From Escherichia phage IME08, in the sequence record NC_014260.1: a stretch of 64,000 nt of DNA; one strand, 5' to 3'. Below are positions 6,066-58,973 of this stretch, in pieces; the first letter of the stretch is position 1, and each line of letters opens with the position of its first letter. The position numbers and the translations under genes were made by a program. Under the pieces are notes generated by a model that was not told the DNA's origin, did no database searches, and worked only from the letters and a program-made list of their open reading frames with translations.

Positions 6066-6632
6066 TTATGCAAAATGAATATCAGCATACTCAACGATAT
6101 AGCTCTCAGGGACAACCTTAAAGGTTCCAAGGAACACGATGTTATAGAGCTTAACGCCTTCTTCAACCCACTGGTCGGTGATGTAACCGGACATACTAGT
6201 GGTTTCATAAGTACCGAAAATTTCGTCATAGTATTCAAACGGCTTAGGGGAAACGAAAAAGACACCTTTACCCAATTCCCATTTAAAATCGACACCCACA
6301 TGAGACTGGTCAATAGTTTCAACGTCTTGAGCTACTACGCCACGGATATCATTGCTTTCACATACATACCCATCATGGGATTCAACTTCTTCAACTACAG
6401 GAGCGATGTACCCAGTGAATTCAGTTGATTCCAAGAATTTAGCACGCACATAAGCGAATTGGGTTTCAGTTTGACCATTTTTAGGAATGATGCGCACTTT
6501 TACTTCAGAATTTTCTTCACTGACACCTTCTTTAAGTTGGATGCTAACAACTTCAACTAAATGGCCTGCAGCTTTTGAACGAGACTTTTTGGATACACGA
6601 ACAATACCGCCGATATCGGAAATAGTAATCAT
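6066..6632 (-). CDS. hypothetical protein, paralog A
   Basis: 188 aa; C-terminal 32 aa (GYITDQWVEEGVKLYNIVFLGTFKVVPESYIV) closely matches the C-terminus of the adjacent 183-aa ORF. Confidence 0.6.
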   Translation of the reverse strand: MITISDIGGIVRVSKKSRSKAAGHLVEVVSIQLKEGVSEENSEVKVRIIPKNGQTETQFAYVRAKFLESTEFTGYIAPVVEEVESHDGYVCESNDIRGVVAQDVETIDQSHVGVDFKWELGKGVFFVSPKPFEYYDEIFGTYETTSMSGYITDQWVEEGVKLYNIVFLGTFKVVPESYIVEYADIHFA

Positions 6633-6703: not shown

Positions 6704-7255
6704 TTAATTATAAATTTTAACCACCATAGAACGAGGTACTACACTAAAACTACCACAGTGAACAACGTTAAGAAGTTCAACACCATCTTCAACCCACTGG
6801 TCTGTTACCCAACCACATATAGGATTATCAAAAGGACGACGGATAGACACAGCAGCACACAGCAGGTCAGTAGGGTCTTGTTCGACTTCAACTTCTTGGA
6901 ACAGGATGAACTCTGCTTCATAAACCAAGATTTTCTCTATTTTGTTATTATCTAATCGACGGCCGTGGATGACGTAAGATTTGGCAAACCAGTCACTTTT
7001 GGTAAATTCTTCAACAATAAATTCGCCTTCGCCAAAAACCTCAGTCAGAGTTTTATGGCCGGAAATCAAGGCATTAGTTTTAATTTCAGGTTCAACCAGT
7101 TTGTAGGTTTTGCCGATTTTGATAGTCTGAGTAGTCATAGTAGGTTCCTTAATTTCCAGTGGTTTAACAGGGCATACATAAGTGCTTAAAACATCAAAAT
7201 CAATCAGTTTAGCTGCCGGATTCGGGGTATATTTAGGGTTATAATTAAATTTCAT
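6704..7255 (-). CDS. hypothetical protein, paralog B
   Basis: 183 aa; C-terminus GWVTDQWVEDGVELLNVVHCGSFSVVPRSMVV similar to paralog A. Confidence 0.6.
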   Translation of the reverse strand: MKFNYNPKYTPNPAAKLIDFDVLSTYVCPVKPLEIKEPTMTTQTIKIGKTYKLVEPEIKTNALISGHKTLTEVFGEGEFIVEEFTKSDWFAKSYVIHGRRLDNNKIEKILVYEAEFILFQEVEVEQDPTDLLCAAVSIRRPFDNPICGWVTDQWVEDGVELLNVVHCGSFSVVPRSMVVKIYN

Positions 7256-11240: not shown

Positions 11241-11855
11241 TCAGTAAGAAAGAACGGAAAGATTCCAAATGGTGTAATTATTCCATTTAGGATTTCTCTC
11301 AATAGAGTCTACGCGCAGCGTAGTTCCCGCAGGGAACATCATCTCATCTTCATCATTGATTAATTGTAAGTTTGCTACACGGGTAGATTCAGGAAATGCG
11401 CCTGGGAACTCTTCAGGGGGCGCGGCACATAACATTTTAAAGATTTCTTCCTGATAATTGTACACAAATGGTGCATCATTAATACAAAAGATATTAAATG
11501 TGCCGTAGAAGTTATAAGATGCGAAATTCCTTGCCACGTTGAAGTCTTTAGAGAAGCTCATTACTCGGTCGAATTCAATTACGGCACCTACACACATCGT
11601 AGATTCAAGATATGCCATAGTCTTCTTAGAAATCCCACGATACAACTTATCAGGCACTACAGAAGTCAGGTTCTTACGAATAATTTTGTTCAGAGTTTCC
11701 TGGATAGTATCTGGTTTATTTTCCATACACTGCCAGAGGGTACTCTGTTCTAAATCAGAATACACCTCATCAATTTCTATCTGAGTATTCTCACGGAAAT
11801 CATCGCATTTAGCGTTGTTGATAAATTCTGCTAATTTATGGCTTGGGTATAACAT
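11241..11855 (-). CDS. modA: ADP-ribosyltransferase (ModA/ModB family)
   Basis: 204 aa; shares LYRGI...FS...ARNFA motifs with the adjacent paralog; position matches T4 modA. Confidence 0.7.
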   Translation of the reverse strand: MLYPSHKLAEFINNAKCDDFRENTQIEIDEVYSDLEQSTLWQCMENKPDTIQETLNKIIRKNLTSVVPDKLYRGISKKTMAYLESTMCVGAVIEFDRVMSFSKDFNVARNFASYNFYGTFNIFCINDAPFVYNYQEEIFKMLCAAPPEEFPGAFPESTRVANLQLINDEDEMMFPAGTTLRVDSIERNPKWNNYTIWNLSVLSY

Positions 11856-11862
11856 ATTATTC

Positions 11863-11910
11863 TCCTCAGTTGATAGAAAGATAGTACCACAAGCTTCCTT
11901 GCCTGTAAAC
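11863..11910 (-). promoter_or_regulatory. sigma70-type early promoter (GTTTAC, 18 nt, TACTAT)
   Basis: gttgatagaaagatagta...gtaaac directly above modA start. Confidence 0.5.
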
Positions 11911-12479
11911 TAAAAATCCAACATTTTTAAATGAATTGTTTTGTACTCGATTTCGTACGGGTCCCTTTTGATGGTTTCGATTTCAACAATCTCGAAACGT
12001 GATAGGCTGGAGACCATGAACTCACATTCAGTTTCAACCATATCATAGAGGTCGATACGGGTTTCATCTATTTCAAGCTCATCCACATTCCCTGCAAGAA
12101 CAAGGTCGATAGCATGATTGTAGTAGTCGAAAATGAACGGTGCATTCCTGAGACTTAAAATGGTTTTGGTTCCATACTCCCATGCCCCTGCGAACTGACG
12201 AGCCTGGGAGTATTGTGTACTAAAAGAAGTAACTCGACCAGGAGACCATTGACACCCTACTGAAAGGAGCTCTAATTGCTCAAGTTCTCTGGTGGTAATC
12301 CCACGATACAACTCTACTGGAACCGCTGAAGTAACATGCTTACGAACCAGTTTGTCGAGGTCGTAATGGAAGTTAGGGTCTTTTTTGGCATCTAGACATT
12401 TTTCTAAAAGATTCTGTTCGTGTTTTGAGAATTTGGAATTGATTCGGTCTTGATAAAGACATTTTTGTTCGATGTTCAT
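11910..12479 (-). CDS. modB: ADP-ribosyltransferase (ModA/ModB family)
   Basis: 189 aa; paralog of preceding ORF (ELYRGIT, SFSTQYSQARQFA). Confidence 0.7.
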   Translation of the reverse strand: MNIEQKCLYQDRINSKFSKHEQNLLEKCLDAKKDPNFHYDLDKLVRKHVTSAVPVELYRGITTRELEQLELLSVGCQWSPGRVTSFSTQYSQARQFAGAWEYGTKTILSLRNAPFIFDYYNHAIDLVLAGNVDELEIDETRIDLYDMVETECEFMVSSLSRFEIVEIETIKRDPYEIEYKTIHLKMLDF

Positions 12480-14705: not shown

Positions 14706-15227
14706 TTAATAACCTCGGTCTTGACGAGCAAAGTTCTCGGCATTTTTCAGATAATACAACTTAAAGATTTCTTCAGCAGTCAGTCCAAGGCCTTGGAACA
14801 TATTCAGAACGAAATGGAGAATATCAATCATTTCAAATTTAATTTCGAGCTGGTCTTCAGGAGAGAGTTCGTCAATACGACGGTTACGGAATTCACCATG
14901 TTGAGCTTTCCAAGGCTTCCACACACTAGATGCGGCTTTCTCGCCATTGCTCATGCCACCAAGAGAAGTCAACAGTTCACGGAATTCGTCATCAATATAA
15001 TCTTTCTGGTTGCGAAGCCAATCGACAACTTGACCTGCAGTAGCCAGTTCATCGGGGTTAGAGTTAAATTCAGATTTTTCAGTAGCCAAACGGACCTGTA
15101 ATGATTTCTGCATATCAAGCATAACCTGCAGAGGGTCTTTATCTTCATGAATCAGAGCATTAAAATAAGCTTCCTCAGCTTTATCAACACCAGAAATCAA
15201 ACCACTACATTCGTTAAAAAATGCCAT
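14706..15227 (-). CDS. 56: dCTP pyrophosphatase (MazG-like dCTPase)
   Basis: 173 aa; position after soc; all-alpha MazG-like sequence with the EExxE signature pattern; size matches T4 gp56. Confidence 0.85.
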   Translation of the reverse strand: MAFFNECSGLISGVDKAEEAYFNALIHEDKDPLQVMLDMQKSLQVRLATEKSEFNSNPDELATAGQVVDWLRNQKDYIDDEFRELLTSLGGMSNGEKAASSVWKPWKAQHGEFRNRRIDELSPEDQLEIKFEMIDILHFVLNMFQGLGLTAEEIFKLYYLKNAENFARQDRGY

Positions 15228-15231
15228 TATA

Positions 15232-15888
15232 TTATTTCCTATTAAAGTTTTCTATCATTCGTCGATAACAAATATCAGGATATCCATTATCAACAGCTAT
15301 TTTATTAAATTTGGTGCGTTTAGGTTTATTATTGTAAACCCATAATTCATAAAGCATATCGTAACTATTCCATATTTCTCCGCGCCTAGGATTTGGCAAA
15401 CCATATCGAGGGGAATCTTTACCACTAAATCTTCCTTTTCTAGCTTTACTCATATTGGCCTTAGCTTCATCAGATATAATTTTATCTTTATGAGCCAGGC
15501 GCATTTTGGCTTTAGTTTCTTCAGGAGTTTTCATCCCTCTAATCCAGGAAGGTTTACCAAACATCGGGTTATTTTTTCCTGAAAATGCTTTAGCGTTATT
15601 TTCTCTTAACGTGGCTATAGTTCTACTAGTTAATTTAACTCCTTTATTATATCTCATTAAATTAACAGCATAATGTAGACCTTTTACTTCGGGATATATT
15701 TTTGTTAAAAGCCTATGAGCTACAAAGTGTTCTCTTGGCAATAAAGCAACTAAATTGTTTTTATCATCAGAACCATTCATACATCTAGGTATAACATGGT
15801 GTTCTTCCGTATAATATGATAAAGACCGCTTAGAACCTCTTAATTTTCCTTTAGATATTAATTCCTGGTATATTTTTTCGTAATTCAT
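15232..15888 (-). CDS. HNH homing endonuclease with NUMOD-like repeats
   Basis: 218 aa; HNH motif EEHHVIPRCMNGSDDKNNLVALLPREHFVAHR; repeated NPMFGK/KDSPRYG modules; AT-rich ORF inserted between gene 56 and gene 61. Confidence 0.8.
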   Translation of the reverse strand: MNYEKIYQELISKGKLRGSKRSLSYYTEEHHVIPRCMNGSDDKNNLVALLPREHFVAHRLLTKIYPEVKGLHYAVNLMRYNKGVKLTSRTIATLRENNAKAFSGKNNPMFGKPSWIRGMKTPEETKAKMRLAHKDKIISDEAKANMSKARKGRFSGKDSPRYGLPNPRRGEIWNSYDMLYELWVYNNKPKRTKFNKIAVDNGYPDICYRRMIENFNRK

Positions 15889-15950: not shown

Positions 15951-16151
15951 ATGGGCAGTATTTTTTACCAAATCTGGAAATTGGCCGAAAAGAAAGACAA
16001 GAAAATGATGTTAGGTTTTCTTGCGCTAGACGTATTCCTTTGGAATCTTTTAGTAGTCCCTGTAGCCGCTAGCCAAGGGATAATTTTACCAGCGGTTACA
16101 ATGGAACACGTATTAAGCATAATTGGATTCTTTAGCGGAATTCCTGCCTAA
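15951..16151 (+). CDS. small hydrophobic protein, only plus-strand gene candidate
   Basis: 66 aa; consensus AGGAGG SD with 5-nt spacing; two hydrophobic segments; convergent with primase gene. Confidence 0.45.
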   Translation: MGSIFYQIWKLAEKKDKKMMLGFLALDVFLWNLLVVPVAASQGIILPAVTMEHVLSIIGFFSGIPA

Positions 16152-17176
16152 ATTTTAGAATATTTCGAAAGTCTCATTTTAGCCATTAGACCTTGGGCTA
16201 TATTAGCTTTCATATATGCCAGTACATCATTTATATCAGCTTTATCTTTCATAATCATATCATTTATATCTTTAGAAGGCCATGGAGCCTTGTCCCAGAA
16301 TAGAACCCTTTCGCCAGCATCAACTAATCGTTGCATACGCTTAATTGTGTCAGGATGGCGGGGTTCATTGTCCATTACCCAAGCTCGAGTTTCTTTACAC
16401 GGAACCATAGCCAAGTCCAATGACCCACCAGTAATTGCTATTGCATTAGGTACGAATAATGAATCAATAGGACCTTCCATTACCCACACCAACTGACGTT
16501 CGTCAACTGTATCCATTCCATATATTTTTGTAGCTTGGTCATGAGCTTTTATTGTAATATATTTTTGTGGAGCATCTTTACGTAAGGCTCGACCCTGAAA
16601 ACTTTCAATTTGTTTATTCTTATTGAAAATTGGAATAACCAAACGCGGTTCAGGCATTTCTTTAGAATAGGTCCCTGGATTCACAGAGTTAACTAATGCG
16701 GGCCATTCTTTAGTAAACCACAGCCGATTCCATTTGTTTTCAGGAATGCAACGTAGTGTCACATATTTGATAATAGGATGGTCCTTTGGCATTCTATCTA
16801 ATCGTTCACAGAAATTAAGCTTTTCGATAACAGGCATCTTAGCTTTAATTTTTTCAGATATCTCCACCTTAGGTGCAGCTTGTCTCCCGAACGATTGCTC
16901 TTTATGTTTCTCAAGAATATATTCACGATATAAATCAGGCTCATATTCGTATAGATACTTCTTAATTCCTGCTGAATAATCACAGTTAAAACAGTGCAGC
17001 ATTACAGAGCCGTCATTGGCCGGATAGGCCCAAAAACGCGCTTTGTTCTCATCTTTTAGGGAGTCGCCACATACACGACAACGGCAATTTAATTTAAAAT
17101 CACTACCAGTTACTTGTCTGAATTTAGGTTGGTAATTCAAGGCACGTACAGCAAATTCTCTATCGACATATGACAT
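16148..17176 (-). CDS. 61: DNA primase
   Basis: 342 aa; N-terminal zinc ribbon CRCRVC...CFNC; same length as T4 gp61. Confidence 0.9.
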   Translation of the reverse strand: MSYVDREFAVRALNYQPKFRQVTGSDFKLNCRCRVCGDSLKDENKARFWAYPANDGSVMLHCFNCDYSAGIKKYLYEYEPDLYREYILEKHKEQSFGRQAAPKVEISEKIKAKMPVIEKLNFCERLDRMPKDHPIIKYVTLRCIPENKWNRLWFTKEWPALVNSVNPGTYSKEMPEPRLVIPIFNKNKQIESFQGRALRKDAPQKYITIKAHDQATKIYGMDTVDERQLVWVMEGPIDSLFVPNAIAITGGSLDLAMVPCKETRAWVMDNEPRHPDTIKRMQRLVDAGERVLFWDKAPWPSKDINDMIMKDKADINDVLAYMKANIAQGLMAKMRLSKYSKI

Positions 17177-17392: not shown

Positions 17393-17584
17393 TTATATTA
17401 CGAAAATAGCTTTATCACCATTTGCATCAGTGACTTCATAGGTATCTTCGTGGTAAAGTGGAATAATCCAAGTCGCACCATCACCAGCAATAATATGGAT
17501 AGCTTCTTGGTCTTTTGATACGATTTCATATTCTTCGAATAATTCGAATACAGAAATCTTAGAGCCCGTACACATTGCACTCAT
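17393..17584 (-). CDS. hypothetical acidic small protein
   Basis: 63 aa ORF; preferred over the overlapping alternative frame 17398..17580. Confidence 0.35.
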   Translation of the reverse strand: MSAMCTGSKISVFELFEEYEIVSKDQEAIHIIAGDGATWIIPLYHEDTYEVTDANGDKAIFVI

Positions 17585-17780
17585 ATTGTTCCCTTCTTTT
17601 AATCAGTTGGCGATGAGCCTTTTTAAGTTTGCGAATCTGGCGCTTAGTTGGCCGTGCCACATAAGCTTGAGTAGTTACTCGTCCAAAAACACCATACTTA
17701 GGTGAAGGAGAATCTATAAAGACTTCCCACTGACAAGAGTAATTATACACGGCTTTAGAGAATTGAGTTAAGACAAACAT
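17559..17780 (-). CDS. hypothetical protein with basic PTKRQIR tail
   Basis: 73 aa; RPTKRQIRKLKKAHRQ motif shared with ORF 18568..18807. Confidence 0.45.
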   Translation of the reverse strand: MFVLTQFSKAVYNYSCQWEVFIDSPSPKYGVFGRVTTQAYVARPTKRQIRKLKKAHRQLIKRREQYECNVYGL

Positions 17781-17781
17781 A

Positions 17782-18222
17782 TTAACCTCGATTCATAAAA
17801 GCATTAAAAATCTGGTCATCGATTGAATAAACCGGAGCTTCCAGAATTTTCAACAGACTATTTTTGATGTACTTACTAGGGATATCCATAGTAATGCCGT
17901 CATTCAATTCATTGTCCGGGAGGATATCTTTAAATTCAAACCCATCAAACTCGACCCTATCAGGAATACCTTCAGCGAAAAAATAAACCAATTGGTGCAT
18001 TGCATTGCACGAAAATAATTTAGACTTGACCGCAATAAGTTCTTGCCAATGGTTTAATTCTCTGTTAAGAAGTTTATGAGCCATTGTAATTCTATCATCA
18101 CTATCAACAAGAAAATAACCTAGGTATTGGTGGTCGTCGCTCCAATACATCCTGTATGCTTGCGCATTTGGATTTTTACAACGAAGTTTTTTGATAACTA
18201 AATTTCTGTTAATCTTATTCAC
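17782..18222 (-). CDS. hypothetical protein
   Basis: 146 aa ORF in gene 61.x region. Confidence 0.5.
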   Translation of the reverse strand: MNKINRNLVIKKLRCKNPNAQAYRMYWSDDHQYLGYFLVDSDDRITMAHKLLNRELNHWQELIAVKSKLFSCNAMHQLVYFFAEGIPDRVEFDGFEFKDILPDNELNDGITMDIPSKYIKNSLLKILEAPVYSIDDQIFNAFMNRG

Positions 18223-18567: not shown

Positions 18568-18807
18568 CTATTTCAGCGAATCTTCCAAATAAATTTTACG
18601 GAATTTACGTTTTGTCTGACGAATCTGACGCTTAGTAGGCTTCACAGGAAAATCGAAGAACTCTACGTATTCTTGTTCATAATCGTTGTGACCGACTGAA
18701 AGAACCAGTTCCCAGTTGCTTACAGTACGTTGGATAAACATATTATGCTTACCGAAAGATTTATTCCAAAAAGAACTAGGAGTTGGTTTCATTAATACAA
18801 TATTCAT
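18568..18807 (-). CDS. hypothetical protein with basic PTKRQIR tail
   Basis: 79 aa; KPTKRQIRQTKRKFRK. Confidence 0.45.
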   Translation of the reverse strand: MNIVLMKPTPSSFWNKSFGKHNMFIQRTVSNWELVLSVGHNDYEQEYVEFFDFPVKPTKRQIRQTKRKFRKIYLEDSLK

Positions 18808-18948: not shown

Positions 18949-19143
18949 TTAGATTTCCTCAATACGGGCATCATGTTCATAAACTTCTACGTCGTCGACA
19001 TACGCCTTAACCAAAATACTATTGACTTCAGCGAATTGGGTGGTCACCCACCCAATATCGTTTTCACGCACTGAAGCTTCTTTGGTAGCGGTATCACCGT
19101 TGGCGAAATGGCCAACAAATTTTACTTTAATTGATTCGGACAT
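18949..19143 (-). CDS. dmd: Dmd-like antitoxin (discriminator of mRNA degradation)
   Basis: 64 aa; W.TTQ.AEVN..LVKA..DD pattern matches my recollection of T4 Dmd; recollection not verified. Confidence 0.55.
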   Translation of the reverse strand: MSESIKVKFVGHFANGDTATKEASVRENDIGWVTTQFAEVNSILVKAYVDDVEVYEHDARIEEI

Positions 19144-19473
19144 TTAGATTTCCTCACAGAAGGCCCATTCAGCATGGTAAACCGTGGCGCCTTTAGTATC
19201 ATTTAAACAAACCACATCTACCGGAGCAATTACACGATAAAGACGGGGTTCTCCTCCCACTGAACGAGCTGCACGTCCAGCATAAATCTTAGCCAAACCG
19301 ATATCTTCAGTAAAGAACACACGATTCAGGTTTTTCTTACGACCGGTTTCAGACAGAACTCCTGTTTCCTCAGGAGGGCAAAGCATATTACCGATATTAG
19401 CAACACTACAACTTCCGTGATAATACACTTTATATTCTGCTTTACAGTCGATGGTTTTCATTTTGTTCTCCAA
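19144..19473 (-). CDS. hypothetical protein
   Basis: 109 aa ORF with its own early promoter. Confidence 0.55.
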   Translation of the reverse strand: MENKMKTIDCKAEYKVYYHGSCSVANIGNMLCPPEETGVLSETGRKKNLNRVFFTEDIGLAKIYAGRAARSVGGEPRLYRVIAPVDVVCLNDTKGATVYHAEWAFCEEI

Positions 19474-19521: not shown

Positions 19522-19546
19522 AACAAAAAAGGAGCCGAAGCTCCTT
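19522..19546 (-). terminator. GGAGC-UUCG-GCUCC tetraloop hairpin + U-run
   Basis: minus strand GGAGCttcgGCTCCttttttgttttt right after the gene 41 stop. Confidence 0.65.
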
Positions 19547-20984
19547 AAAATTTGATAGATGCTGCTAAATCGTCCAAATCACTTCTATTAACACGCGTCT
19601 GTCGATTGACCTCGGCTTGACGATTCATTTCACCTGTAGCCTCACGAACAGTGTTCACTGGGCCTGGGTTGGAATCGTCTTCAACTTCGTACCAACGTTG
19701 ATTTCCTTTCTTAACACCAATCTTAAATTTGTTGTAGTAGCTCTTATCACCATAACGAGATTTAAGCTGCTTAACCATCTGCATACCCATTTGGGCAAAC
19801 TCTTCTGTCTCGACCACACCTAACATGAAGTCTGCAGTATGTGCAATACCAAAGGATTCGGCAATATCAGCCATATCGATTTCGGCTGCAACGTTCGCAC
19901 CACGAGTAGTCTGGGCTGCAGTCCACAACAATAATTTCTTCTCTACTGCCAGTCCACGTAGTTCTTCGGCTACCATCTTAATCAATCCGTAACTGTTTTC
20001 AGAGAAAACTTTCGTACGAGACGATGCACAGATGGCCAAGTAGTCGACGATAACGACCTGTGGGACAAAGTTTTGTTTGAGCTTATATTCGTTTAATAAT
20101 GCACGGAATGTATCGGCATTAGCACCACCAGTAGGGTACTGTTTAATCTTTAAACGTCCTAAGGTAGCAGTCGAACGCCATTTATCCATCTTAGCTTTAT
20201 ATTCAGGCCAAGAGACATGACCATCATCGATATCGTCTAGTGATACATCCAGAAGGTTGGCATCGATACGCTTAGCACATACTTCCTCTGCCATCTCCAT
20301 GGAGATATAAAGAACATCGTAACCGGATTGAAGGTAATCAGCAGCCAATGAACACAGACCAAGAGACTTACCTACGTTTGTTCCTGCCAACAGTACGTTT
20401 TCAGTACCAAACTCAGCACCACCCTTGGTAATCTTATTCAGAATATTAAGACGGAACGGAACCTTACGCGCTTTATCGGAATAACTTTTGAATCGTTCTT
20501 CATAGTCATCCATCCAGTCATGACCTAATTCAGAATCGAAACAAATCGATAATGCATCACGCATGATATCTGGAATAGCACCAATACCTGGAAGTTTTCT
20601 ATTTTGTTGCTCAACCGGAAGGTCGGCATTAGTTTGGATTTCAATGATTTTTGAAGTTGCATTATACATCGCTGCTTTCTGAACGTATTTCTCCGTCTCT
20701 TTAACCAACCATTCTTGGTCTTCGGGTCTGGCATTCAGCGAACTTAAAAGCTCTTTAGCTCCTTGATGTTCGACTTCTGAAAGCGTGCTGTTATCTAATG
20801 CAATGCTCAATGCGTTCTTAGAAGGCACTGCATTATATTCATTGACGTGTTTTTTAATTTCTTTGAAAAGGGTCTTTGCAGGACCCTGGTCAAAATAAGA
20901 ATCATTCATATAAGGCCAGACCTTAGTGAAATAATCACTATTGCCTAGCAGTTGAGCCAAAATAGTTTCTACCACTTCCACCAC
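19545..20984 (-). CDS. 41: replicative DNA helicase (DnaB family)
   Basis: 479 aa; Walker A AGTNVGKS, RecA-like core; T4 gp41 size. Confidence 0.95.
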   Translation of the reverse strand: MVEVVETILAQLLGNSDYFTKVWPYMNDSYFDQGPAKTLFKEIKKHVNEYNAVPSKNALSIALDNSTLSEVEHQGAKELLSSLNARPEDQEWLVKETEKYVQKAAMYNATSKIIEIQTNADLPVEQQNRKLPGIGAIPDIMRDALSICFDSELGHDWMDDYEERFKSYSDKARKVPFRLNILNKITKGGAEFGTENVLLAGTNVGKSLGLCSLAADYLQSGYDVLYISMEMAEEVCAKRIDANLLDVSLDDIDDGHVSWPEYKAKMDKWRSTATLGRLKIKQYPTGGANADTFRALLNEYKLKQNFVPQVVIVDYLAICASSRTKVFSENSYGLIKMVAEELRGLAVEKKLLLWTAAQTTRGANVAAEIDMADIAESFGIAHTADFMLGVVETEEFAQMGMQMVKQLKSRYGDKSYYNKFKIGVKKGNQRWYEVEDDSNPGPVNTVREATGEMNRQAEVNRQTRVNRSDLDDLAASIKF

Positions 20985-53940: not shown

Positions 53941-54220
53941 CTTCTACCTTCATTAGTTTTGCATAACGCTCTCCGATGGCACGACCTTCAATTGAGCATG
54001 CTTCTATAGTCCGACAACTTGAATTCTTCCAGGAAGCCGTAACATAGGCCCAATAGTCTTCGGAGGCCTTTACGCTTGGTCTACTCATTTGCGCATAAAC
54101 AGGCATCGCACTACTAGCAAACGCGTCCATCAATTTATCGTTGGTATCATTTGCTAGTGAAACTGAAGGGCCTAAACATCCCGCCATAAGGATACAAGCC
54201 GCTGTACGGAAAATATCCAT
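53927..54220 (-). CDS. rI: lysis-inhibition regulator RI-like periplasmic protein
   Basis: 97 aa; N-terminal signal-anchor; C..EAC...GERYAKLM parallels recalled T4 RI C..FEC...AQSYARIM. Confidence 0.65.
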   Translation of the reverse strand: MDIFRTAACILMAGCLGPSVSLANDTNDKLMDAFASSAMPVYAQMSRPSVKASEDYWAYVTASWKNSSCRTIEACSIEGRAIGERYAKLMKVEDEIQ

Positions 54221-54312
54221 ACAAATGTCCTTTGTTGTTTTATACTATTTGCCTTTCGGCCTTAACCGATAGCGATTACCAAAAGCTAAAGCTCTACGGT
54301 TAGTATTATTAT

Positions 54313-54591
54313 TTATAGCTTTTTAAGCTTACGACAATAAGAATAGAACACGTCGTTAAAATTATATTCAACCCAATTCCTCTGTATAGGCGAGGTAATG
54401 GAAAGCATATAATGCGCTTTAATTAAATCCATCCCATTTTTATTAGGACACTCTTTATTATTAGCATTATACGTCGCTGCTACAACCTCTATCTCTCTTT
54501 TGTAAGCCACATCATCCATGATAGGCGAAAGAACAATATAAGAAATAGCCACAGCGAACGCTAGAATTAAAATCTTTGAATTTAGGTCCAT
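54313..54591 (-). CDS. membrane protein
   Basis: 92 aa; N-terminal TM helix. Confidence 0.5.
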   Translation of the reverse strand: MDLNSKILILAFAVAISYIVLSPIMDDVAYKREIEVVAATYNANNKECPNKNGMDLIKAHYMLSITSPIQRNWVEYNFNDVFYSYCRKLKKL

Positions 54592-54598
54592 AGTACCC

Positions 54599-55171
54599 TC
54601 AACTCGTTATTTCTATCCAGTGCTTCCTGCACAATGACACGTAAGAATCGTTGCCACCTATAGAAACTTGGGCTCCGTCCTTAATTGCGATACCATCTTG
54701 GATACGAGCCGTCATAGTAGCTTTACGGCCGCAATGGCACACACCTTTATACTCAACGAGTTTATCTGCCGTAGCGAGTAATTCAGCAGAGCCAGGAAAC
54801 AGTTTACCCTGAAAATCAGTTCTTAGTCCATAGCACATAACTGGAACATTATAATTGTCTACTATCTTGGCCAGTTGTTTTATCTGTACAGGTTCTAAGA
54901 ATTGCGCTTCATCCACAAACACACAGTGGATATCTTTTTGAGATTCAGCCCAACGATAGAACTCGTATAGGTCCATATCCGGAGTCACTGCATTAGCCTC
55001 TTGGCTAATCCCTATACGAGATGAAATGCTATGGCTTGATTCTCTATTGTCTATCGCAGGCTTTAAAAGGAGTACGCCCATACCGCGTTCTTTGTAGTTA
55101 TGAGCGGCCGTTAGCAATGAAGCAGTCTTCCCAGAATTCATTGCAGCATAGTGAAAATAAAGTTGAGCCAT
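54599..55171 (-). CDS. tk: thymidine kinase
   Basis: 190 aa; Walker A MNSGKT; C-terminal zinc-binding CHCGRKAT...C..H. Confidence 0.9.
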   Translation of the reverse strand: MAQLYFHYAAMNSGKTASLLTAAHNYKERGMGVLLLKPAIDNRESSHSISSRIGISQEANAVTPDMDLYEFYRWAESQKDIHCVFVDEAQFLEPVQIKQLAKIVDNYNVPVMCYGLRTDFQGKLFPGSAELLATADKLVEYKGVCHCGRKATMTARIQDGIAIKDGAQVSIGGNDSYVSLCRKHWIEITS

Positions 55172-55180
55172 ATTACCTTC

Positions 55181-55387
55181 TTAAAGACTATTTACATAAG
55201 CTATTAATTCATTTTCTTTCTCATCAAATCGATTGGCAAATTCTTCCTGATGTTCGGCATCTATTGGACCGTATTCATCATAAAAGGCGTTTGCTTCCGT
55301 ATGCTCATCCAAAAGCTCATGGATAAGCTCAAATAATTTATCTTTCTGTTCTTTACTCAGACTCATAACCATTGCACCTTTAAGCAA
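55181..55387 (-). CDS. hypothetical acidic protein
   Basis: 68 aa ORF. Confidence 0.4.
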   Translation of the reverse strand: MLKGAMVMSLSKEQKDKLFELIHELLDEHTEANAFYDEYGPIDAEHQEEFANRFDEKENELIAYVNSL

Positions 55388-55575
55388 TATTCTTCTACAT
55401 GCTGTTTACGTTTATTTTTATCTATAAAAGTATATTCAACATATTCACCTATATACCATTTATCGGTGTTGTGTTGACTTTTTATAGGGCATTTAGTTAC
55501 TCGAGTTTCGGTCCAGCGTCGAATAATTTCCGCTTTGTTTTTAGGGTCAAACGGATGTGGGTAATGGGCTTTCAT
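55363..55575 (-). CDS. hypothetical protein
   Basis: 70 aa ORF. Confidence 0.4.
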   Translation of the reverse strand: MKAHYPHPFDPKNKAEIIRRWTETRVTKCPIKSQHNTDKWYIGEYVEYTFIDKNKRKQHVEEYCLKVQWL

Positions 55576-56014
55576 AATCTACCACCACTAAATTGATATC
55601 AGGAGTAAACAAATTAATCAATTGATAAACCTTGTCCCAATCACCACCAGCAATACCACAACCAATGCGAGGAATATAAATTCTTGGTTTAAACAAAAGA
55701 CCTTTTGCGGTACGGTTTAATTCTATCATACAGTTTACTAAAGCACCATAATCAAGATTAGGGCCTGGCTCGTATTGCGTATAAAGATTATAGCAAATTT
55801 GCCCATTATTACCTGTGGCTTGAGTAAATGTGCCAAGTTTTTCTACACCGCCTAAATAAGTGGTTTTATCGATAGCGAGAATAGGCGGATAAGCCTTAGC
55901 CAATTGTCCGGCTACACCTGAACCCATTGTATGGAAACAATTGCACCCGTGTGCAACATTATTACCTTGAAGAAACAGGGCGACGATATCGCCCTTAATA
56001 TAATCAATAATCAT
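55547..56014 (-). CDS. macro-domain protein (ADP-ribose binding/hydrolase fold)
   Basis: 155 aa; GNNVAHGCNCFHTMGSGVAGQLAKAYP and IGCGIAGGDW resemble macrodomain signatures. Confidence 0.65.
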   Translation of the reverse strand: MIIDYIKGDIVALFLQGNNVAHGCNCFHTMGSGVAGQLAKAYPPILAIDKTTYLGGVEKLGTFTQATGNNGQICYNLYTQYEPGPNLDYGALVNCMIELNRTAKGLLFKPRIYIPRIGCGIAGGDWDKVYQLINLFTPDINLVVVDYESPLPTSV

Positions 56015-56367
56015 TTAGAATTTAATCCTCGGTTGTACGAGTCAACGAGTCTGTCTACCATAGACGCGCACATTTCTTTGTACTTTTTATCAGATGGAAC
56101 ACATTCAGTAACGTTTAGACGTTGCTCGTACCTTTTAGAAAGAGTTTTCTCTTTCATTCTGCGATGCTCTACGTCGTTCTGTCCATCTTTAAAAGCCGCT
56201 GTGATTTTTGAACTGAATTCGATAACGCATTCAGTATTACTTGGATGACAATAATCTTTTGCTGTGCGGGTAGCATACTCAACAATTGAATTATTGCTAT
56301 CATCAACTTGTGACGCTAATACTCCCGGAGCTATCAACATAAGCGCTATAGTCATCTGCTTAATCAT
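56011..56367 (-). CDS. secreted/periplasmic protein
   Basis: 118 aa; signal peptide MIKQMTIALMLIAPGVLAS. Confidence 0.5.
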   Translation of the reverse strand: MIKQMTIALMLIAPGVLASQVDDSNNSIVEYATRTAKDYCHPSNTECVIEFSSKITAAFKDGQNDVEHRRMKEKTLSKRYEQRLNVTECVPSDKKYKEMCASMVDRLVDSYNRGLNSK

Positions 56368-56907
56368 TTAGTATACCGCCTCAAACATCTTTTTAGATTT
56401 TAGGTAATTGGCCTTTTCTAGAACTTCAGAAGCATACTTACTGCCTGCTTTGACGTTCCAGCCCGCATTATAAGAAGCAATCGCTTTTCTCAGGTCACCT
56501 TTGTGAACATCAATCCAATAAGACAGCTCAATGTAGGCCCAAGAGGCACTGTTCTGTCGTTTTTGGACCATGCGAATTATTTCTTTGTCTGACATCTTCC
56601 AACCTACCTGTTGAACACGACTTCTTAACGTAGGCAAGTAATTTTGGAACATGCCATAAGCATGGTGCTTATCTTTATTTAAACCCTGATTAATTCCGGC
56701 AGATGATTCCTGCCATAGTAATCCGGCCATGATATATCCTAATCCTTTTTGATTAGGGTTTTCTTTGAACTTTCCCGACTTTTGGTATTGTTCACCGAAA
56801 GCATACGCATAATGTAAATTATCGAGTTGTTCATTACTGAAAGTAGGCTCTACGCTATGGGCAGACATACTAACTGTCAATAGTAAAGTGGCTAATACTT
56901 TTTTCAT
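56368..56907 (-). CDS. periplasmic lytic transglycosylase-like protein (SLT domain)
   Basis: 179 aa; signal peptide; GLLWQESS and AYGMFQ resemble SLT catalytic Glu-Ser and GLMQ motifs. Confidence 0.6.
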   Translation of the reverse strand: MKKVLATLLLTVSMSAHSVEPTFSNEQLDNLHYAYAFGEQYQKSGKFKENPNQKGLGYIMAGLLWQESSAGINQGLNKDKHHAYGMFQNYLPTLRSRVQQVGWKMSDKEIIRMVQKRQNSASWAYIELSYWIDVHKGDLRKAIASYNAGWNVKAGSKYASEVLEKANYLKSKKMFEAVY

Positions 56908-56919
56908 GAGACCTCATTA

Positions 56920-57378
56920 TTAAAGATAGATTACTTTCGTGCTGGTTTTACCTTCTAAACGTTTAGAGTTAACAAATGCCATACGACATTTAAGGGAATA
57001 TCCTTTATCAGGATGTTTACGGTCTACGGTCATACCTAGCCATAAGGTTTTATCGGTAATTTCGAGACGCAATGGACGATACACTTTACCAGGGACAATT
57101 TCGGATTCTACATCAGGCAGAGGTTCCTGGATTAAGAATTCATGGATTTCTTTAACATGGTTATGGAGTTGCTTGAATAAAGCAAAAACGTATTTTTCGT
57201 CGATTTCACGTTGGATAGCACGGTCCAACAAATGATTAGAGTACTTAATAAAGAAGGCTGGGACTCCGCTCTTAACGGCGGCTTTTTTGATGGACGCATT
57301 CAGTTCGCGGAATTCGGTTTCGAACTGACGACGTAATTTGTTGCGGCGGATGAATACTTCTGAATTAATTTCTGACAT
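56920..57378 (-). CDS. regB: RegB endoribonuclease
   Basis: 152 aa; EVFIRRNKLRR...HLLDRAIQREIDE...YRPLRLEITD match recalled T4 RegB. Confidence 0.85.
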   Translation of the reverse strand: MSEINSEVFIRRNKLRRQFETEFRELNASIKKAAVKSGVPAFFIKYSNHLLDRAIQREIDEKYVFALFKQLHNHVKEIHEFLIQEPLPDVESEIVPGKVYRPLRLEITDKTLWLGMTVDRKHPDKGYSLKCRMAFVNSKRLEGKTSTKVIYL

Positions 57379-57394
57379 TTTGTAATCTCCTGTA

Positions 57395-57435
57395 GTTGAT
57401 AGGTTTATAGTATCATGTCTACAGGAGATGTAAAC
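57395..57435 (-). promoter_or_regulatory. sigma70-type early promoter with conserved block (1 mismatch)
   Basis: gttgataggtttatagtatca + 17 nt + gtaaac above regB. Confidence 0.7.
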
Positions 57436-57439
57436 AGCT

Positions 57440-57649
57440 TTATTCTTGGAATGGGGTAAGTTTTCCAGCAGCTGAACAAATTTCTACCAGTACAGGGTAA
57501 AACTCTTTCACTTGTTCAAGGCGTTGGGCTGCATACTGTACTTCGCCTTCTTCGAGACAAGCCATTTGGTCGTCAAGCAAGTATTTGTGGTAGCCTGTAC
57601 AGGCTTCACCGATGATACGCTGGAAATCTTGTAAACTTTCAATTTTCAT
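57440..57649 (-). CDS. hypothetical protein
   Basis: internal Met start at 57649 abutting upstream stop. Confidence 0.4.
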   Translation of the reverse strand: MKIESLQDFQRIIGEACTGYHKYLLDDQMACLEEGEVQYAAQRLEQVKEFYPVLVEICSAAGKLTPFQE

Positions 57650-57927
57650 CAGTATTTTTCCTCGGGTTGGAAAACGGAACGACATGCCCACATGCTTGCT
57701 TCTTTCAAGCGTTCGATTGCCGTACGAATCTGGGCTAGGCGTTCATGGGTGAGGTTGAATTCTTCATCACTCATTTTATCAACACCGGAGCATGTAAAGG
57801 CTTCAACATATTCTTCTTCCAAGGCTTTAAAGATTAACCCTAATCGAACTTCGGCATCTTTAATCGCATTCACTTTACCAATTTTATCGTCGGTATGTGG
57901 CTTATAACCCTTAATATCTTCAATCAT
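57649..57927 (-). CDS. hypothetical protein
   Basis: 92 aa ORF. Confidence 0.4.
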   Translation of the reverse strand: MIEDIKGYKPHTDDKIGKVNAIKDAEVRLGLIFKALEEEYVEAFTCSGVDKMSDEEFNLTHERLAQIRTAIERLKEASMWACRSVFQPEEKY

Positions 57928-58142
57928 TTCACTTCCTCATCAGATGCAATATCGTATTCAACTAAATGAATCCCGTCATATCCGCCACGAACAGAGATAT
58001 ATGTGCTAGGATAAACGGTTTCTTTACCATTCCATTGTCCACCATCCCAACATTCCAAAAAGCCTTGTTCGCCCTGTTCGTGGAACCAGTCAACAAACAT
58101 CTTCAGAGCTTCATCAGAGCCTTCAATTGTCAATTTAGACAT
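57924..58142 (-). CDS. hypothetical acidic protein
   Basis: 72 aa ORF. Confidence 0.4.
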   Translation of the reverse strand: MSKLTIEGSDEALKMFVDWFHEQGEQGFLECWDGGQWNGKETVYPSTYISVRGGYDGIHLVEYDIASDEEVK

Positions 58143-58431
58143 ATTTCTTCCAGTCAGAAATCATATGAATCTCTTGGTCATAAGTTAAGAGACTGCGAGT
58201 AATAATACCCTTACAAGGCCCTGAGATGAACTCGAGGGTGAAGTAAGGAACTTGTTTCATTAATCGGATGCTTGGGGCGTGGCATCTAAAACGAGAGCCC
58301 TTAAAGGGCCCTGTCATGAATACATATTCTAATGGGTAAAAATAAGCATATTCAAAATTCATGGTAAGGTCCTCTCTTCGAACCTTACGTGAGAAATAAC
58401 AGAACTCAAAAAGTTCTTCATCAGTCATCAT
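58135..58431 (-). CDS. hypothetical protein
   Basis: 98 aa ORF. Confidence 0.4.
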   Translation of the reverse strand: MMTDEELFEFCYFSRKVRREDLTMNFEYAYFYPLEYVFMTGPFKGSRFRCHAPSIRLMKQVPYFTLEFISGPCKGIITRSLLTYDQEIHMISDWKKYV

Positions 58432-58973
58432 TGCATTCCTATCACAAAAAACAGAGGACGTGTGGTTTGATTGGTTTCTTCACATGATGCACGGCAGCAA
58501 TGTTGCACCACCTTTATGTGGGCATCATAAATCTTATCCATATCGGGTGTTTTAACAGGCTCATCAATTATATACAGAACCCGTGAAAGTGATAATCCGC
58601 GGAATTTGCATGCAGTATTACCAATAAAACTACGAACAGAATCAATGTACAAACGGTACTTAATACTTTCTGTATGGTTATTAAAATATTCCTTTCGAAT
58701 AGCTGATGCGGAGACATTAGCATAAGCGCTATTTTGCGATAGAACAATAACAGTACCGCCATCAGCTAACCATTCCGTAGCAAAAATGGATACTGCTTTA
58801 GTTTTACCGGATTGGCGCCCACCATCAAGTTTTAAGGTGCAGCATTCTTTAAACAGGGTTTGTGAATCAGGTACATAAAACCCACTATTACAAATGTGTT
58901 CTACTCTAGCATCAGAATGGTTTGCAAAAGCATTCATCAGGGATAGATAACTACCGGTTAAAAACGTTTTCAT
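58428..58973 (-). CDS. putative P-loop protein
   Basis: 181 aa; Walker-A-like GGRQSGKT and possible Walker B YIIDEP. Confidence 0.5.
   Translation of the reverse strand: MKTFLTGSYLSLMNAFANHSDARVEHICNSGFYVPDSQTLFKECCTLKLDGGRQSGKTKAVSIFATEWLADGGTVIVLSQNSAYANVSASAIRKEYFNNHTESIKYRLYIDSVRSFIGNTACKFRGLSLSRVLYIIDEPVKTPDMDKIYDAHIKVVQHCCRASCEETNQTTRPLFFVIGMQ

What the first reader, a model, noticed from the sequence alone, without database searches (positions are those of the whole stretch)
55547..56014. Macro-domain protein in a phage that encodes ADP-ribosyltransferases
A 155-aa ORF has macrodomain-like glycine-rich signatures (GCNCFHTMGSGVAGQ, GCGIAGGDW). The same window encodes ModA/ModB-type ADP-ribosyltransferases, so this could be an ADP-ribosyl hydrolase that reverses or tunes those modifications, or counters host ADP-ribosylation-based defence.
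Basis: partly seen in the sequence, partly recalled or inferred. Interest (0 to 1): 0.5.

Follow-up and report, generated by a model that had tools for sequence, protein, structure and literature searches.

The report
Phage Tk.4 macrodomain, anti-DarT2 factor
This gene is the T4 tk.4 (adfM) counterpart in a T4-like coliphage: a small ADP-ribose-removing macrodomain enzyme that most likely strips the ADP-ribose a bacterial defence toxin (DarT2) puts on phage DNA, so the finding is real but already described.

Summary
Window 55547..56014 (-) encodes a 155-aa protein that passes the Pfam Macro threshold. It folds with high confidence (pLDDT 94) into a macrodomain whose nearest solved structures are BT1257, Poa1p, DarG and TARG1.

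The window is a Dhakavirus-type T4-like coliphage, about 98% identical to IME341 and AnYang. The gene is the syntenic ortholog of T4 tk.4 (54% identity; order tk, tk.2, tk.3, tk.4, vs, vs.1, regB).

A 2025 preprint showed that T4 tk.4 is the one T4 gene needed to resist the DarTG2 defence system and renamed it adfM. Nothing links the gene to ModA/ModB, which lie 43 kb away.

One refinement is new. The protein is not a DarG-type enzyme. The catalytic lysine of DarG and TARG1 is a glutamine (Q80), found in nearly all of 259 relatives, and it is paired with N25. This is the arrangement in Streptomyces SCO6735, which cleaves thymidine-linked ADP-ribose from DNA.

The PhiKZ protein also called AdfM is a separate, lysine-bearing DarG-type lineage. 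Activity of this particular protein has not been tested.

Verdict: already known, modest interest.

The parts
55547..56014 (-). tk.4 / adfM ortholog: 155-aa single-domain macrodomain protein
   Evidence: ORF. Pfam Macro 33.1 bits, above the cut-off of 22. 54% identity over the full length to T4 Tk.4. 100% identical to the IME341 protein. AF2 pLDDT 94.2.
55904..55951 (-). H22-G-C-N25-C...G31-S-G33 segment: conserved His, the macrodomain Asn (N25) and the first glycine-rich ADP-ribose-binding loop
   Evidence: Translation. H22, G23, N25 and G33 are invariant in 51 homologs. By hhalign N25 aligns with SCO6735 Asn27 and the conserved DarG Asn, and by BLASTP with PhiKZ AdfM N23. Mutating these Asn residues cuts activity.
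55775..55789 (-). N76-L-Y-T-Q80: strand end carrying Gln80 at the position of the catalytic Lys of DarG (K80) and TARG1 (K84)
   Evidence: Translation. HMM and hhalign alignments to TARG1, SCO6735 and TaqDarG agree, as does MAFFT. Q is invariant in 51 homologs. At least 235 of 259 relatives match an N-x-[YFWH]-[TGS]-Q pattern.
55637..55672 (-). P115-R-I-G118-C-G120-I-A122-G-G-D-W126: second glycine-rich (diphosphate-binding) loop
   Evidence: Translation. P115, G118, G120 and W126 are invariant. G120 aligns with SCO6735 Gly128 (offsets), whose G128E mutant is impaired. A122 sits where TARG1 has Asp125.
56011..56014 (-). ATGA start/stop overlap with the upstream vs ortholog; a GAGGA Shine-Dalgarno-like sequence lies 11 nt upstream of the ATG
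   Evidence: Sequence read directly. ORF ends. This implies co-transcription and probably translational coupling with vs.
55547..55575 (-). 29-nt overlap of the tk.4 3' end with the start of the tk.3 ortholog (DUF7202)
   Evidence: ORF coordinates. The same overlap is annotated in phage Bp7. Pfam DUF7202 for the downstream ORF.

Best explanation
The gene is the ortholog of bacteriophage T4 tk.4 (recently renamed adfM, anti-DarT factor macrodomain) in a Dhakavirus-type T4-like coliphage. It encodes a stand-alone macrodomain of the ALC1/TARG1-like class. It sits in a run of same-strand genes and its start overlaps the stop of vs. Proposed mechanism: when the host DarT2 toxin ADP-ribosylates thymidines in single-stranded phage DNA (TNTC motifs) to block replication, the protein binds the ADP-ribose through its two glycine-rich loops. 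It then hydrolyses the thymine-ribose bond, releasing ADP-ribose and restoring the template. It acts as an orphan antitoxin without any DarT-binding domain. The chemistry is probably of the lysine-independent SCO6735 type, in which Gln80, held by Asn25, positions the distal ribose and a backbone-held water starts the reaction. It is probably not the Lys-dependent DarG/TARG1 type. Shown here: ORF, macro fold, orthology and synteny with T4 tk.4, and the active-site residue pattern. Shown in the literature for the T4 ortholog: genetic requirement for DarTG2 resistance. Inferred: that this ortholog does the same, that the protection is enzymatic de-ADP-ribosylation of DNA, and the Gln-based mechanism.
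Against: No biochemistry exists for T4 Tk.4 or for this ortholog. The preprint itself says removal of ADP-ribose from DNA 'seems likely'. Identity to T4 Tk.4 is only 54%, so substrate range could differ. The protein lacks the catalytic Lys of DarG and TARG1. It also lacks the extended Lys-rich mobile loop that SCO6735 is proposed to use for DNA binding (5-residue gap). Database names for the family ('phosphatase', 'Poa1p-like', 'O-acetyl-ADP-ribose deacetylase') point to small-molecule substrates. The supporting genetics is a preprint.
Confidence: 0.72

Rival explanations
1. It is a Poa1p-like small-molecule ADP-ribose-derivative hydrolase. It would be an ADP-ribose-1''-phosphate phosphatase or O-acetyl-ADP-ribose deacetylase that clears NAD-derived metabolites, or degrades ADP-ribose-based immune signals such as Thoeris-type molecules. 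It would not act on DNA.
Against: The only phenotype reported for the T4 ortholog is specific to DarTG2, a DNA-modifying system. The annotations are transferred by homology and were never tested. From general knowledge, T4 RNA repair (Pnk/Rnl1) does not go through the Tpt1 step that generates ADP-ribose-1''-phosphate. A small-molecule activity could coexist with the DNA activity, as it does in TARG1.
Confidence: 0.12
2. It is the eraser for the phage's own writers. It would reverse or tune ADP-ribosylation or RNAylation of host proteins by Alt, ModA or ModB.
For: ModA/ModB-like genes are in the same genome window. No phage-encoded eraser for these marks came up in the papers read here. At least one macrodomain lineage, Legionella MavL, is arginine-specific (title cited), so the chemistry is not impossible for the fold.
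Against: The genes are 43 kb apart with no linkage. In T4 the tk.4 insertions were depleted specifically in the presence of DarTG2. The active site matches SCO6735-type enzymes, whose shown substrates in the papers read are thymine- or uracil-linked ADP-ribose and, more weakly, auto-modified PARP1. Tk.4 homologs occur in 2,731 phage records spanning Felixounavirus-, Ackermannviridae- and Pseudomonas-phage-like genomes. From general knowledge many of these lack Alt/Mod homologs; this was not tested here.
Confidence: 0.06
3. It protects RNA rather than DNA, or as well as DNA. It would remove base-linked ADP-ribose, for example on uracil, from phage transcripts modified by host ADP-ribosyltransferase toxins.
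For: SCO6735, TARG1 and DarG, its closest characterised relatives, also reverse uracil-linked ADP-ribosylation of single-stranded RNA (PMC13036486). RNA-targeting ADP-ribosyltransferase defences exist, such as CmdTAC (mentioned).
Against: No natural uracil-modifying anti-phage toxin is reported in the papers read. CmdT modifies adenine, and that mark is described as irreversible so far. From general knowledge CmdTAC still restricts T4. The known phenotype is against DarTG2, whose physiological target is described as DNA.
Confidence: 0.08

Closest known systems
Bacteriophage T4 Tk.4 = AdfM (anti-DarT factor macrodomain; bioRxiv 10.1101/2025.11.20.689424)
   Same: Ortholog. 155 aa in both, 54% identity end to end. 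Same position between vs and tk.3. All 16 family-invariant residues are shared, including H22, N25, D49, N76, Y78, T79, Q80, G118, G120 and W126.
   Different: 46% of residues differ. The second loop reads GCGIAGGDW here and GAGIGKGNW in T4. This protein has a 4-residue longer C-terminus and a 29-nt rather than 4-nt overlap with tk.3. The anti-DarTG2 phenotype has been shown only for T4.
Streptomyces coelicolor SCO6735 and Bacteroides BT1257 (Gln-type ALC1-like macrodomains; PDB 5E3B, 2AFC/2FG1)
   Different: Only 25-30% identity. The phage protein lacks the 5-residue longer mobile loop carrying Lys89 and Lys94. It has G23 where SCO6735 has Val25, a backbone-mediated role. It has Tyr-Thr where they have Ile-Gly before the Gln. 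They are cellular DNA-damage-inducible proteins, not phage counter-defence genes.
DarG antitoxin macrodomain (T. aquaticus, M. tuberculosis; PDB 5M31, 5M3E, 5M3I)
   Different: Catalytic Lys80 is replaced by Gln. There is no C-terminal DarT-binding domain and no adjacent darT. The NCBIfam DarG equivalog scores 20 bits against a cut-off of 250.
PhiKZ gp104, also named AdfM (Cell Rep 2026, PMC13309987)
   Same: A phage-encoded stand-alone macrodomain that neutralises DarT2. N23 there aligns with N25 here. For gp104, de-ADP-ribosylation of DNA has been shown in vitro.
   Different: A different lineage. gp104 is DarG-type (phmmer E 9e-25 to Mtb DarG) and keeps the P-T-K lysine. It is 20% identical to the window protein, pairwise E 0.006. 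It is imported into the phage nucleus. Two groups gave the same name to non-orthologous proteins.
Human TARG1 / yeast Poa1p
   Different: The TARG1 Lys84/Asp125 dyad is Gln80/Ala122 here. Poa1p is characterised as an ADP-ribose-1''-phosphate phosphatase.

Membership tests
Macro domain superfamily (Pfam PF01661) | Sequence matches the family HMM above the curated gathering score | tested here: met
   33.1 bits against a cut-off of 22, model positions 2-117 of 118.
Macro domain superfamily (Pfam PF01661) | Three-layer alpha/beta macro fold with two glycine-rich ADP-ribose-binding loops | tested here: met
Macro domain superfamily (Pfam PF01661) | Binds ADP-ribose | not testable with these tools
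   Needs ITC, a thermal-shift assay or a co-crystal.
ALC1/TARG1-like macrodomain class | Closer in structure and sequence to TARG1, DarG, Poa1p and SCO6735 than to MacroD-type, viral, PARG or macroH2A macrodomains | tested here: met
T4 Tk.4 / AdfM orthologous group | Full-length similarity to T4 Tk.4 | tested here: met
   54% identity and 72% positives over 155 of 155 residues, E 2e-62.
T4 Tk.4 / AdfM orthologous group | Conserved position between vs and tk.3 in the tk-regB cluster | tested here: met
   Window neighbours are Tk, DUF7438, DUF7202, macro, an ORF with no Pfam match at the vs position, an SLT-like ORF and RegB. Bp7 and T4 annotations agree.
T4 Tk.4 / AdfM orthologous group | Required for phage resistance to DarTG2 | not testable with these tools
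   Shown only for T4. Needs a deletion or complementation experiment with this phage or gene.
DarG antitoxin (NCBIfam NF048014) | Score above the equivalog cut-off | tested here: not met
   20.2 bits against a cut-off of 250.
DarG antitoxin (NCBIfam NF048014) | Catalytic lysine (TaqDarG Lys80) | tested here: not met
   Gln80 aligns with Lys80 (hhalign; MAFFT).
DarG antitoxin (NCBIfam NF048014) | C-terminal DarT-binding domain and an adjacent darT gene | tested here: not met
   The protein is a single 155-aa domain, whereas the DarG model is 338 positions. The flanking genes are the vs and tk.3 orthologs.
TARG1 | Lys84/Asp125 catalytic dyad | tested here: not met
   The profile alignment puts Q80 on Lys84 and A122 on Asp125.
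SCO6735/BT1257-type (Gln-type) thymidine-ADP-ribose hydrolases | Gln at the Lys position, the Asn that locks it, and the loop Gly (SCO6735 Gln85, Asn27, Gly128) | tested here: met
   Q80, N25 and G120 align with them. All three are invariant in 51 homologs. Q is present in at least 235 of 259 relatives.
SCO6735/BT1257-type (Gln-type) thymidine-ADP-ribose hydrolases | Extended mobile loop with Lys89 and Lys94, proposed to bind DNA | tested here: not met
   hhalign shows a 5-residue gap in the phage family at this loop. MAFFT shows the same gap against BT1257.
SCO6735/BT1257-type (Gln-type) thymidine-ADP-ribose hydrolases | Hydrolyses thymidine-linked ADP-ribose on ssDNA | not testable with these tools
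   Needs a gel-shift or AMP-Glo assay on a DarT2-modified oligonucleotide.
Poa1p-like ADP-ribose-1''-phosphate phosphatase | Phosphatase activity on ADP-ribose-1''-phosphate; His23/Ser30-type residues | tested here: inconclusive
   H22 and T29 fall at the Poa1p His23 and Ser30 positions, judged from alignment offsets, mutant entry names and the recalled Poa1p sequence. Activity cannot be tested here.

The most novel reading that the evidence does not exclude
Besides neutralising DarT2, the Tk.4-type macrodomain could be the missing eraser for the phage's own ADP-ribosyl and RNAylation marks written by Alt, ModA or ModB. T4-like phages would then carry a complete writer-eraser circuit acting on host proteins or RNA. 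A less radical reading is far more likely, at roughly 0.6. In that reading T-even phages and nucleus-forming jumbo phages independently recruited two mechanistically different macrodomain lineages against the same toxin: Gln-type, like SCO6735, and Lys-type, like DarG.
Probability: 0.07. Interest if true: 0.65.

Novelty: already known. Interest (0 to 1): 0.27.

Why it matters
Little here is new. The protein is 100% identical to a deposited phage protein. Some public records already annotate family members as macro-domain proteins or phosphatases. The T4 ortholog has been assigned an anti-DarTG2 role. The residue-level result is still useful in two ways. First, it says the T-even AdfM should be studied against the lysine-independent SCO6735 mechanism, not against DarG, which is the comparison the preprint made. 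Second, it shows that the two phage proteins both named AdfM are not orthologs. The family is large: 2,731 phage records and 1,279 clusters at 50% identity with E <= 1e-30. A correct functional label would therefore propagate widely. It would also help predict which therapeutic phages escape DarTG2-carrying hosts.

Tried and rejected
1. Filing the protein as a DarG homolog of the antitoxin family. Rejected: NCBIfam gives 20 bits against a cut-off of 250, there is Gln in place of Lys80, and there is no DarT-binding domain.

2. Equating it with PhiKZ AdfM because of the shared name. Rejected: 20% identity, pairwise E 0.006, and gp104 is DarG-type with the lysine.

3. A 7-sequence MAFFT alignment (A4) mis-registered the central strand of SCO6735 and BT1257. 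I did not use it. I relied on the HMM alignment, hhalign and the 12-sequence alignment, which agree with each other.

I repeated it with alignment A2.

5. The promoter scan of 54200..58600 found 13 sigma-70-like sites against 13.2 expected, so it gave no usable promoter assignment. The terminator-like hairpin at 55995..55977 lies inside the coding region and I treat it as chance.

6. I looked for other biochemical work on Tk.4. I found only a T2 RIL-seq and proteomics preprint in which tk.4 mRNA contacts the sRNA ArcZ and the protein is detected, with no functional consequence.

7. I looked for other anti-DarT factors in the window. There is no convincing AdfA. AdfN is T4 gene 30.3, and I did not look for its ortholog.

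Full report
**1. Observation**

The 155-aa ORF at 55547..56014 on the minus strand exists as described. Both quoted motifs are present: GCNCFHTMGSGVAGQ at 55904..55948 and GCGIAGGDW at 55637..55663.

The macrodomain assignment is far beyond chance:
- Pfam Macro (PF01661) scores 33.1 bits against a gathering score of 22 and covers almost the whole model.
- PHROG 335 matches at E 6e-67.
- phmmer against PDB sequences finds BT1257, SCO6735, Poa1p, the M. tuberculosis DarG macrodomain and TARG1.
- An AlphaFold2 model built on 51 homologs has pLDDT 94.2 and pTM 0.88, with the expected alternating strand-helix layout.
- Foldseek gives TM 0.77/0.85 to TARG1.

The protein is therefore a macrodomain of the ALC1/TARG1-like class.

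**2. Genomic identity**

The 3 kb around the gene is 97-98% identical to Escherichia phages IME341, AnYang, C6 and Bp7. Bp7 is classified in Straboviridae, Tevenvirinae, Dhakavirus. The protein is 100% identical to the IME341 product.

Neighbours on the same strand:
- Thymidine kinase: 54599..55171
- DUF7438 (tk.2 position): 55181..55387
- DUF7202 (tk.3 position): 55363..55575
- The macro gene: 55547..56014
- The vs ortholog (no Pfam match): 56011..56367
- An SLT-like vs.1: 56368..56907
- RegB: 56920..57378

This is the T4 order tk, tk.2, tk.3, tk.4, vs, vs.1, regB, as annotated in Bp7 and T4.

The protein is 54% identical to T4 Tk.4 over all 155 residues. It is the tk.4 ortholog.

Its ATG overlaps the vs stop codon (ATGA), and a GAGGA lies 11 nt upstream. 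Its 3' end overlaps the tk.3 start by 29 nt. The gene is thus embedded in a tightly packed co-directional block.

ModA/ModB-like genes are in the window at 11241..11855 and 11910..12479. They are 43 kb away, in the srd-mod-mrh region.

**3. What is known about tk.4**

A November 2025 preprint screened a T4 transposon library on a host expressing DarTG2. The single significant hit was tk.4. A clean knock-out sensitised T4 to DarTG2. The authors noted structural similarity to Mtb DarG and renamed the gene adfM. They state that enzymatic removal of ADP-ribose from DNA 'seems likely' (bioRxiv 10.1101/2025.11.20.689424).

This fits earlier work. T2 and T4 lacking AdfA and AdfN remained DarTG2-resistant, and a further factor was predicted (PMC11825919).

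A separate 2026 paper gave the same name, AdfM, to PhiKZ gp104. It showed in vitro that gp104 removes DarT2-made ADP-ribose from a TNTC oligonucleotide, with an N23A mutant impaired (PMC13309987).

I found no biochemistry on Tk.4 itself. A T2 study only reports that the protein is detectable and that its mRNA contacts the sRNA ArcZ.

**4. Active site**

This is where the analysis adds something. Sixteen residues are invariant across 51 homologs: H22, G23, N25, G33, A35, D49, G61, N76, Y78, T79, Q80, G84, P115, G118, G120 and W126.

Three independent alignments place Q80 on the catalytic lysine of TARG1 (Lys84) and DarG (Lys80), and A122 on TARG1 Asp125:
- The profile HMM against TARG1
- hhalign against TaqDarG
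- A 12-sequence MAFFT alignment

The same position is Gln in BT1257 and in SCO6735. hhalign to SCO6735 (probability 98.9%, E 1e-17) puts N25 on Asn27 and Q80 on Gln85. Alignment offsets put G120 on Gly128.

SCO6735 cleaves DarT-made thymidine-linked ADP-ribose from DNA. Gln85 and Asn27 are required for this. The authors propose a lysine-independent, water-initiated mechanism (PMC9411070).

Among 259 relatives retrieved in two database searches, at least 235 match an N-x-[YFWH]-[TGS]-Q pattern, and the few non-matching sequences inspected also carry a Gln at the corresponding spot. Only one sequence matched with a Lys.

PhiKZ gp104 is different. It matches Mtb DarG at E 9e-25, keeps the P-T-K lysine, and is only 20% identical to the window protein.

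NCBIfam's DarG equivalog scores 20 bits against a cut-off of 250.

Three conclusions follow:
- The window protein works like a DarG macrodomain but is not a member of that family.
- Its nearest characterised relative, mechanistically, is SCO6735.
- The two proteins named AdfM belong to different macrodomain lineages.

One difference from SCO6735 is that the phage family lacks the 5-residue longer, lysine-bearing mobile loop proposed to help DNA binding.

**5. Mechanism and rivals**

Best explanation (0.72): an orphan-antitoxin-like thymine-ADP-ribose DNA glycohydrolase that undoes DarT2 damage to replicating phage DNA, using Asn25 and Gln80.
- Shown here: gene, fold, orthology, residue pattern.
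- Shown elsewhere: the T4 phenotype, SCO6735 chemistry, and proof of principle from PhiKZ AdfM.
- Inferred: transfer of function to this ortholog, and the catalytic mechanism.

Rivals:
- A Poa1p-type small-molecule phosphatase or deacetylase, or a degrader of immune signals (0.12). This is the source of the 'phosphatase' annotations. It is favoured in general terms by a comparative-genomics survey but does not explain the DarTG2-specific phenotype.
- An RNA base de-ADP-ribosylase (0.08). SCO6735, TARG1 and DarG also act on uracil-ADPr.
- An eraser of the phage's own Alt/ModA/ModB marks (0.06). It has no linkage or phenotype support, and it remains untested.

These activities need not be mutually exclusive.

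**6. Novelty and verdict**

However:
- The gene is a known, widely conserved T4-like gene, found in 2,731 phage records and in 1,279 clusters at 50% identity with E <= 1e-30.
- Some public records already annotate family members as macro-domain proteins or phosphatases.
- The T4 ortholog already has a published (preprint) counter-defence role.

I rate it 'already known', interest 0.27. The residual value lies in two points: the Gln-type (SCO6735-like) rather than DarG-like active site, and the non-orthology of the two AdfM proteins.

Noticed in passing
window 57649..57927 (-): A 92-aa ORF at the vs.4 position matches Pfam Acb2_Tad1_hairpin (59.5 bits against a cut-off of 27). This is the Acb2 anti-CBASS sponge family. 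It lies 1.6 kb upstream of the macro gene, so this stretch carries at least two counter-defence genes.
   Followed up: partly
window 17782..18222 (-): A 146-aa ORF (phrog_8539, unknown function) sits next to spackle, where I recall T4-like phages carrying gene 61.2 / AdfA (positional claim from memory, not checked here). It matches the Pfam AdfA model only over its last 15 residues (16.3 bits, below the cut-off of 27). It could be a replaced or highly diverged anti-DarT1 factor that keeps only the C-terminal tail.
   Followed up: no
window 19144..19473 (-): A 109-aa ORF lies between dmd (18949..19143, Pfam Dmd) and the 479-aa ORF at 19545..20984, which I take to be the gene 41 helicase from T4 gene order and size (not scanned). 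It has no Pfam match and belongs to phrog_2110 (unknown function, E 2e-60). I recall no T4 gene at this position (from memory, not checked).
   Followed up: no
window 17559..17780 (-) and 18568..18807 (-): Two small paralogous DUF7279 ORFs (73 and 79 aa, each with a basic C-terminal tail) bracket the AdfA-position ORF and spackle. This looks like a local duplication around a variable cassette.
   Followed up: no
literature (PMC13309987 vs bioRxiv 10.1101/2025.11.20.689424): The name AdfM has been given independently to two non-orthologous phage macrodomains: PhiKZ gp104 (DarG-type, with lysine) and T4 Tk.4 (SCO6735-type, with glutamine). They are about 20% identical.
   Followed up: yes
window 6066..6632 (-) and 6704..7255 (-): A full MotB-like ORF (Pfam motB, 205 bits) is followed by a second ORF (phrog_2333) that shares only the C-terminal ~40 residues of the MotB model (38 bits). 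This is a partial paralog next to motB.
   Followed up: no
window 15232..15888 (-): An HNH/NUMOD3 homing-endonuclease ORF (PHROG 655, E 2e-54) lies between the nucleoside triphosphate pyrophosphohydrolase gene at 14706..15227 (PHROG 173; T4 gene 56 dCTPase by position and size) and the 342-aa ORF at 16148..17176, taken as the gene 61 primase from its size and T4 gene order.
   Followed up: no
window 55977..55995 (-): A terminator-like GC-rich hairpin (AGGGCGATATCGTCGCCCT followed by a T-rich tail) lies 20 nt inside the 5' end of the macro coding sequence. The region has 7 such sites against 2.8 expected. Its position within the ORF suggests chance or an mRNA structure rather than termination.
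   Followed up: no
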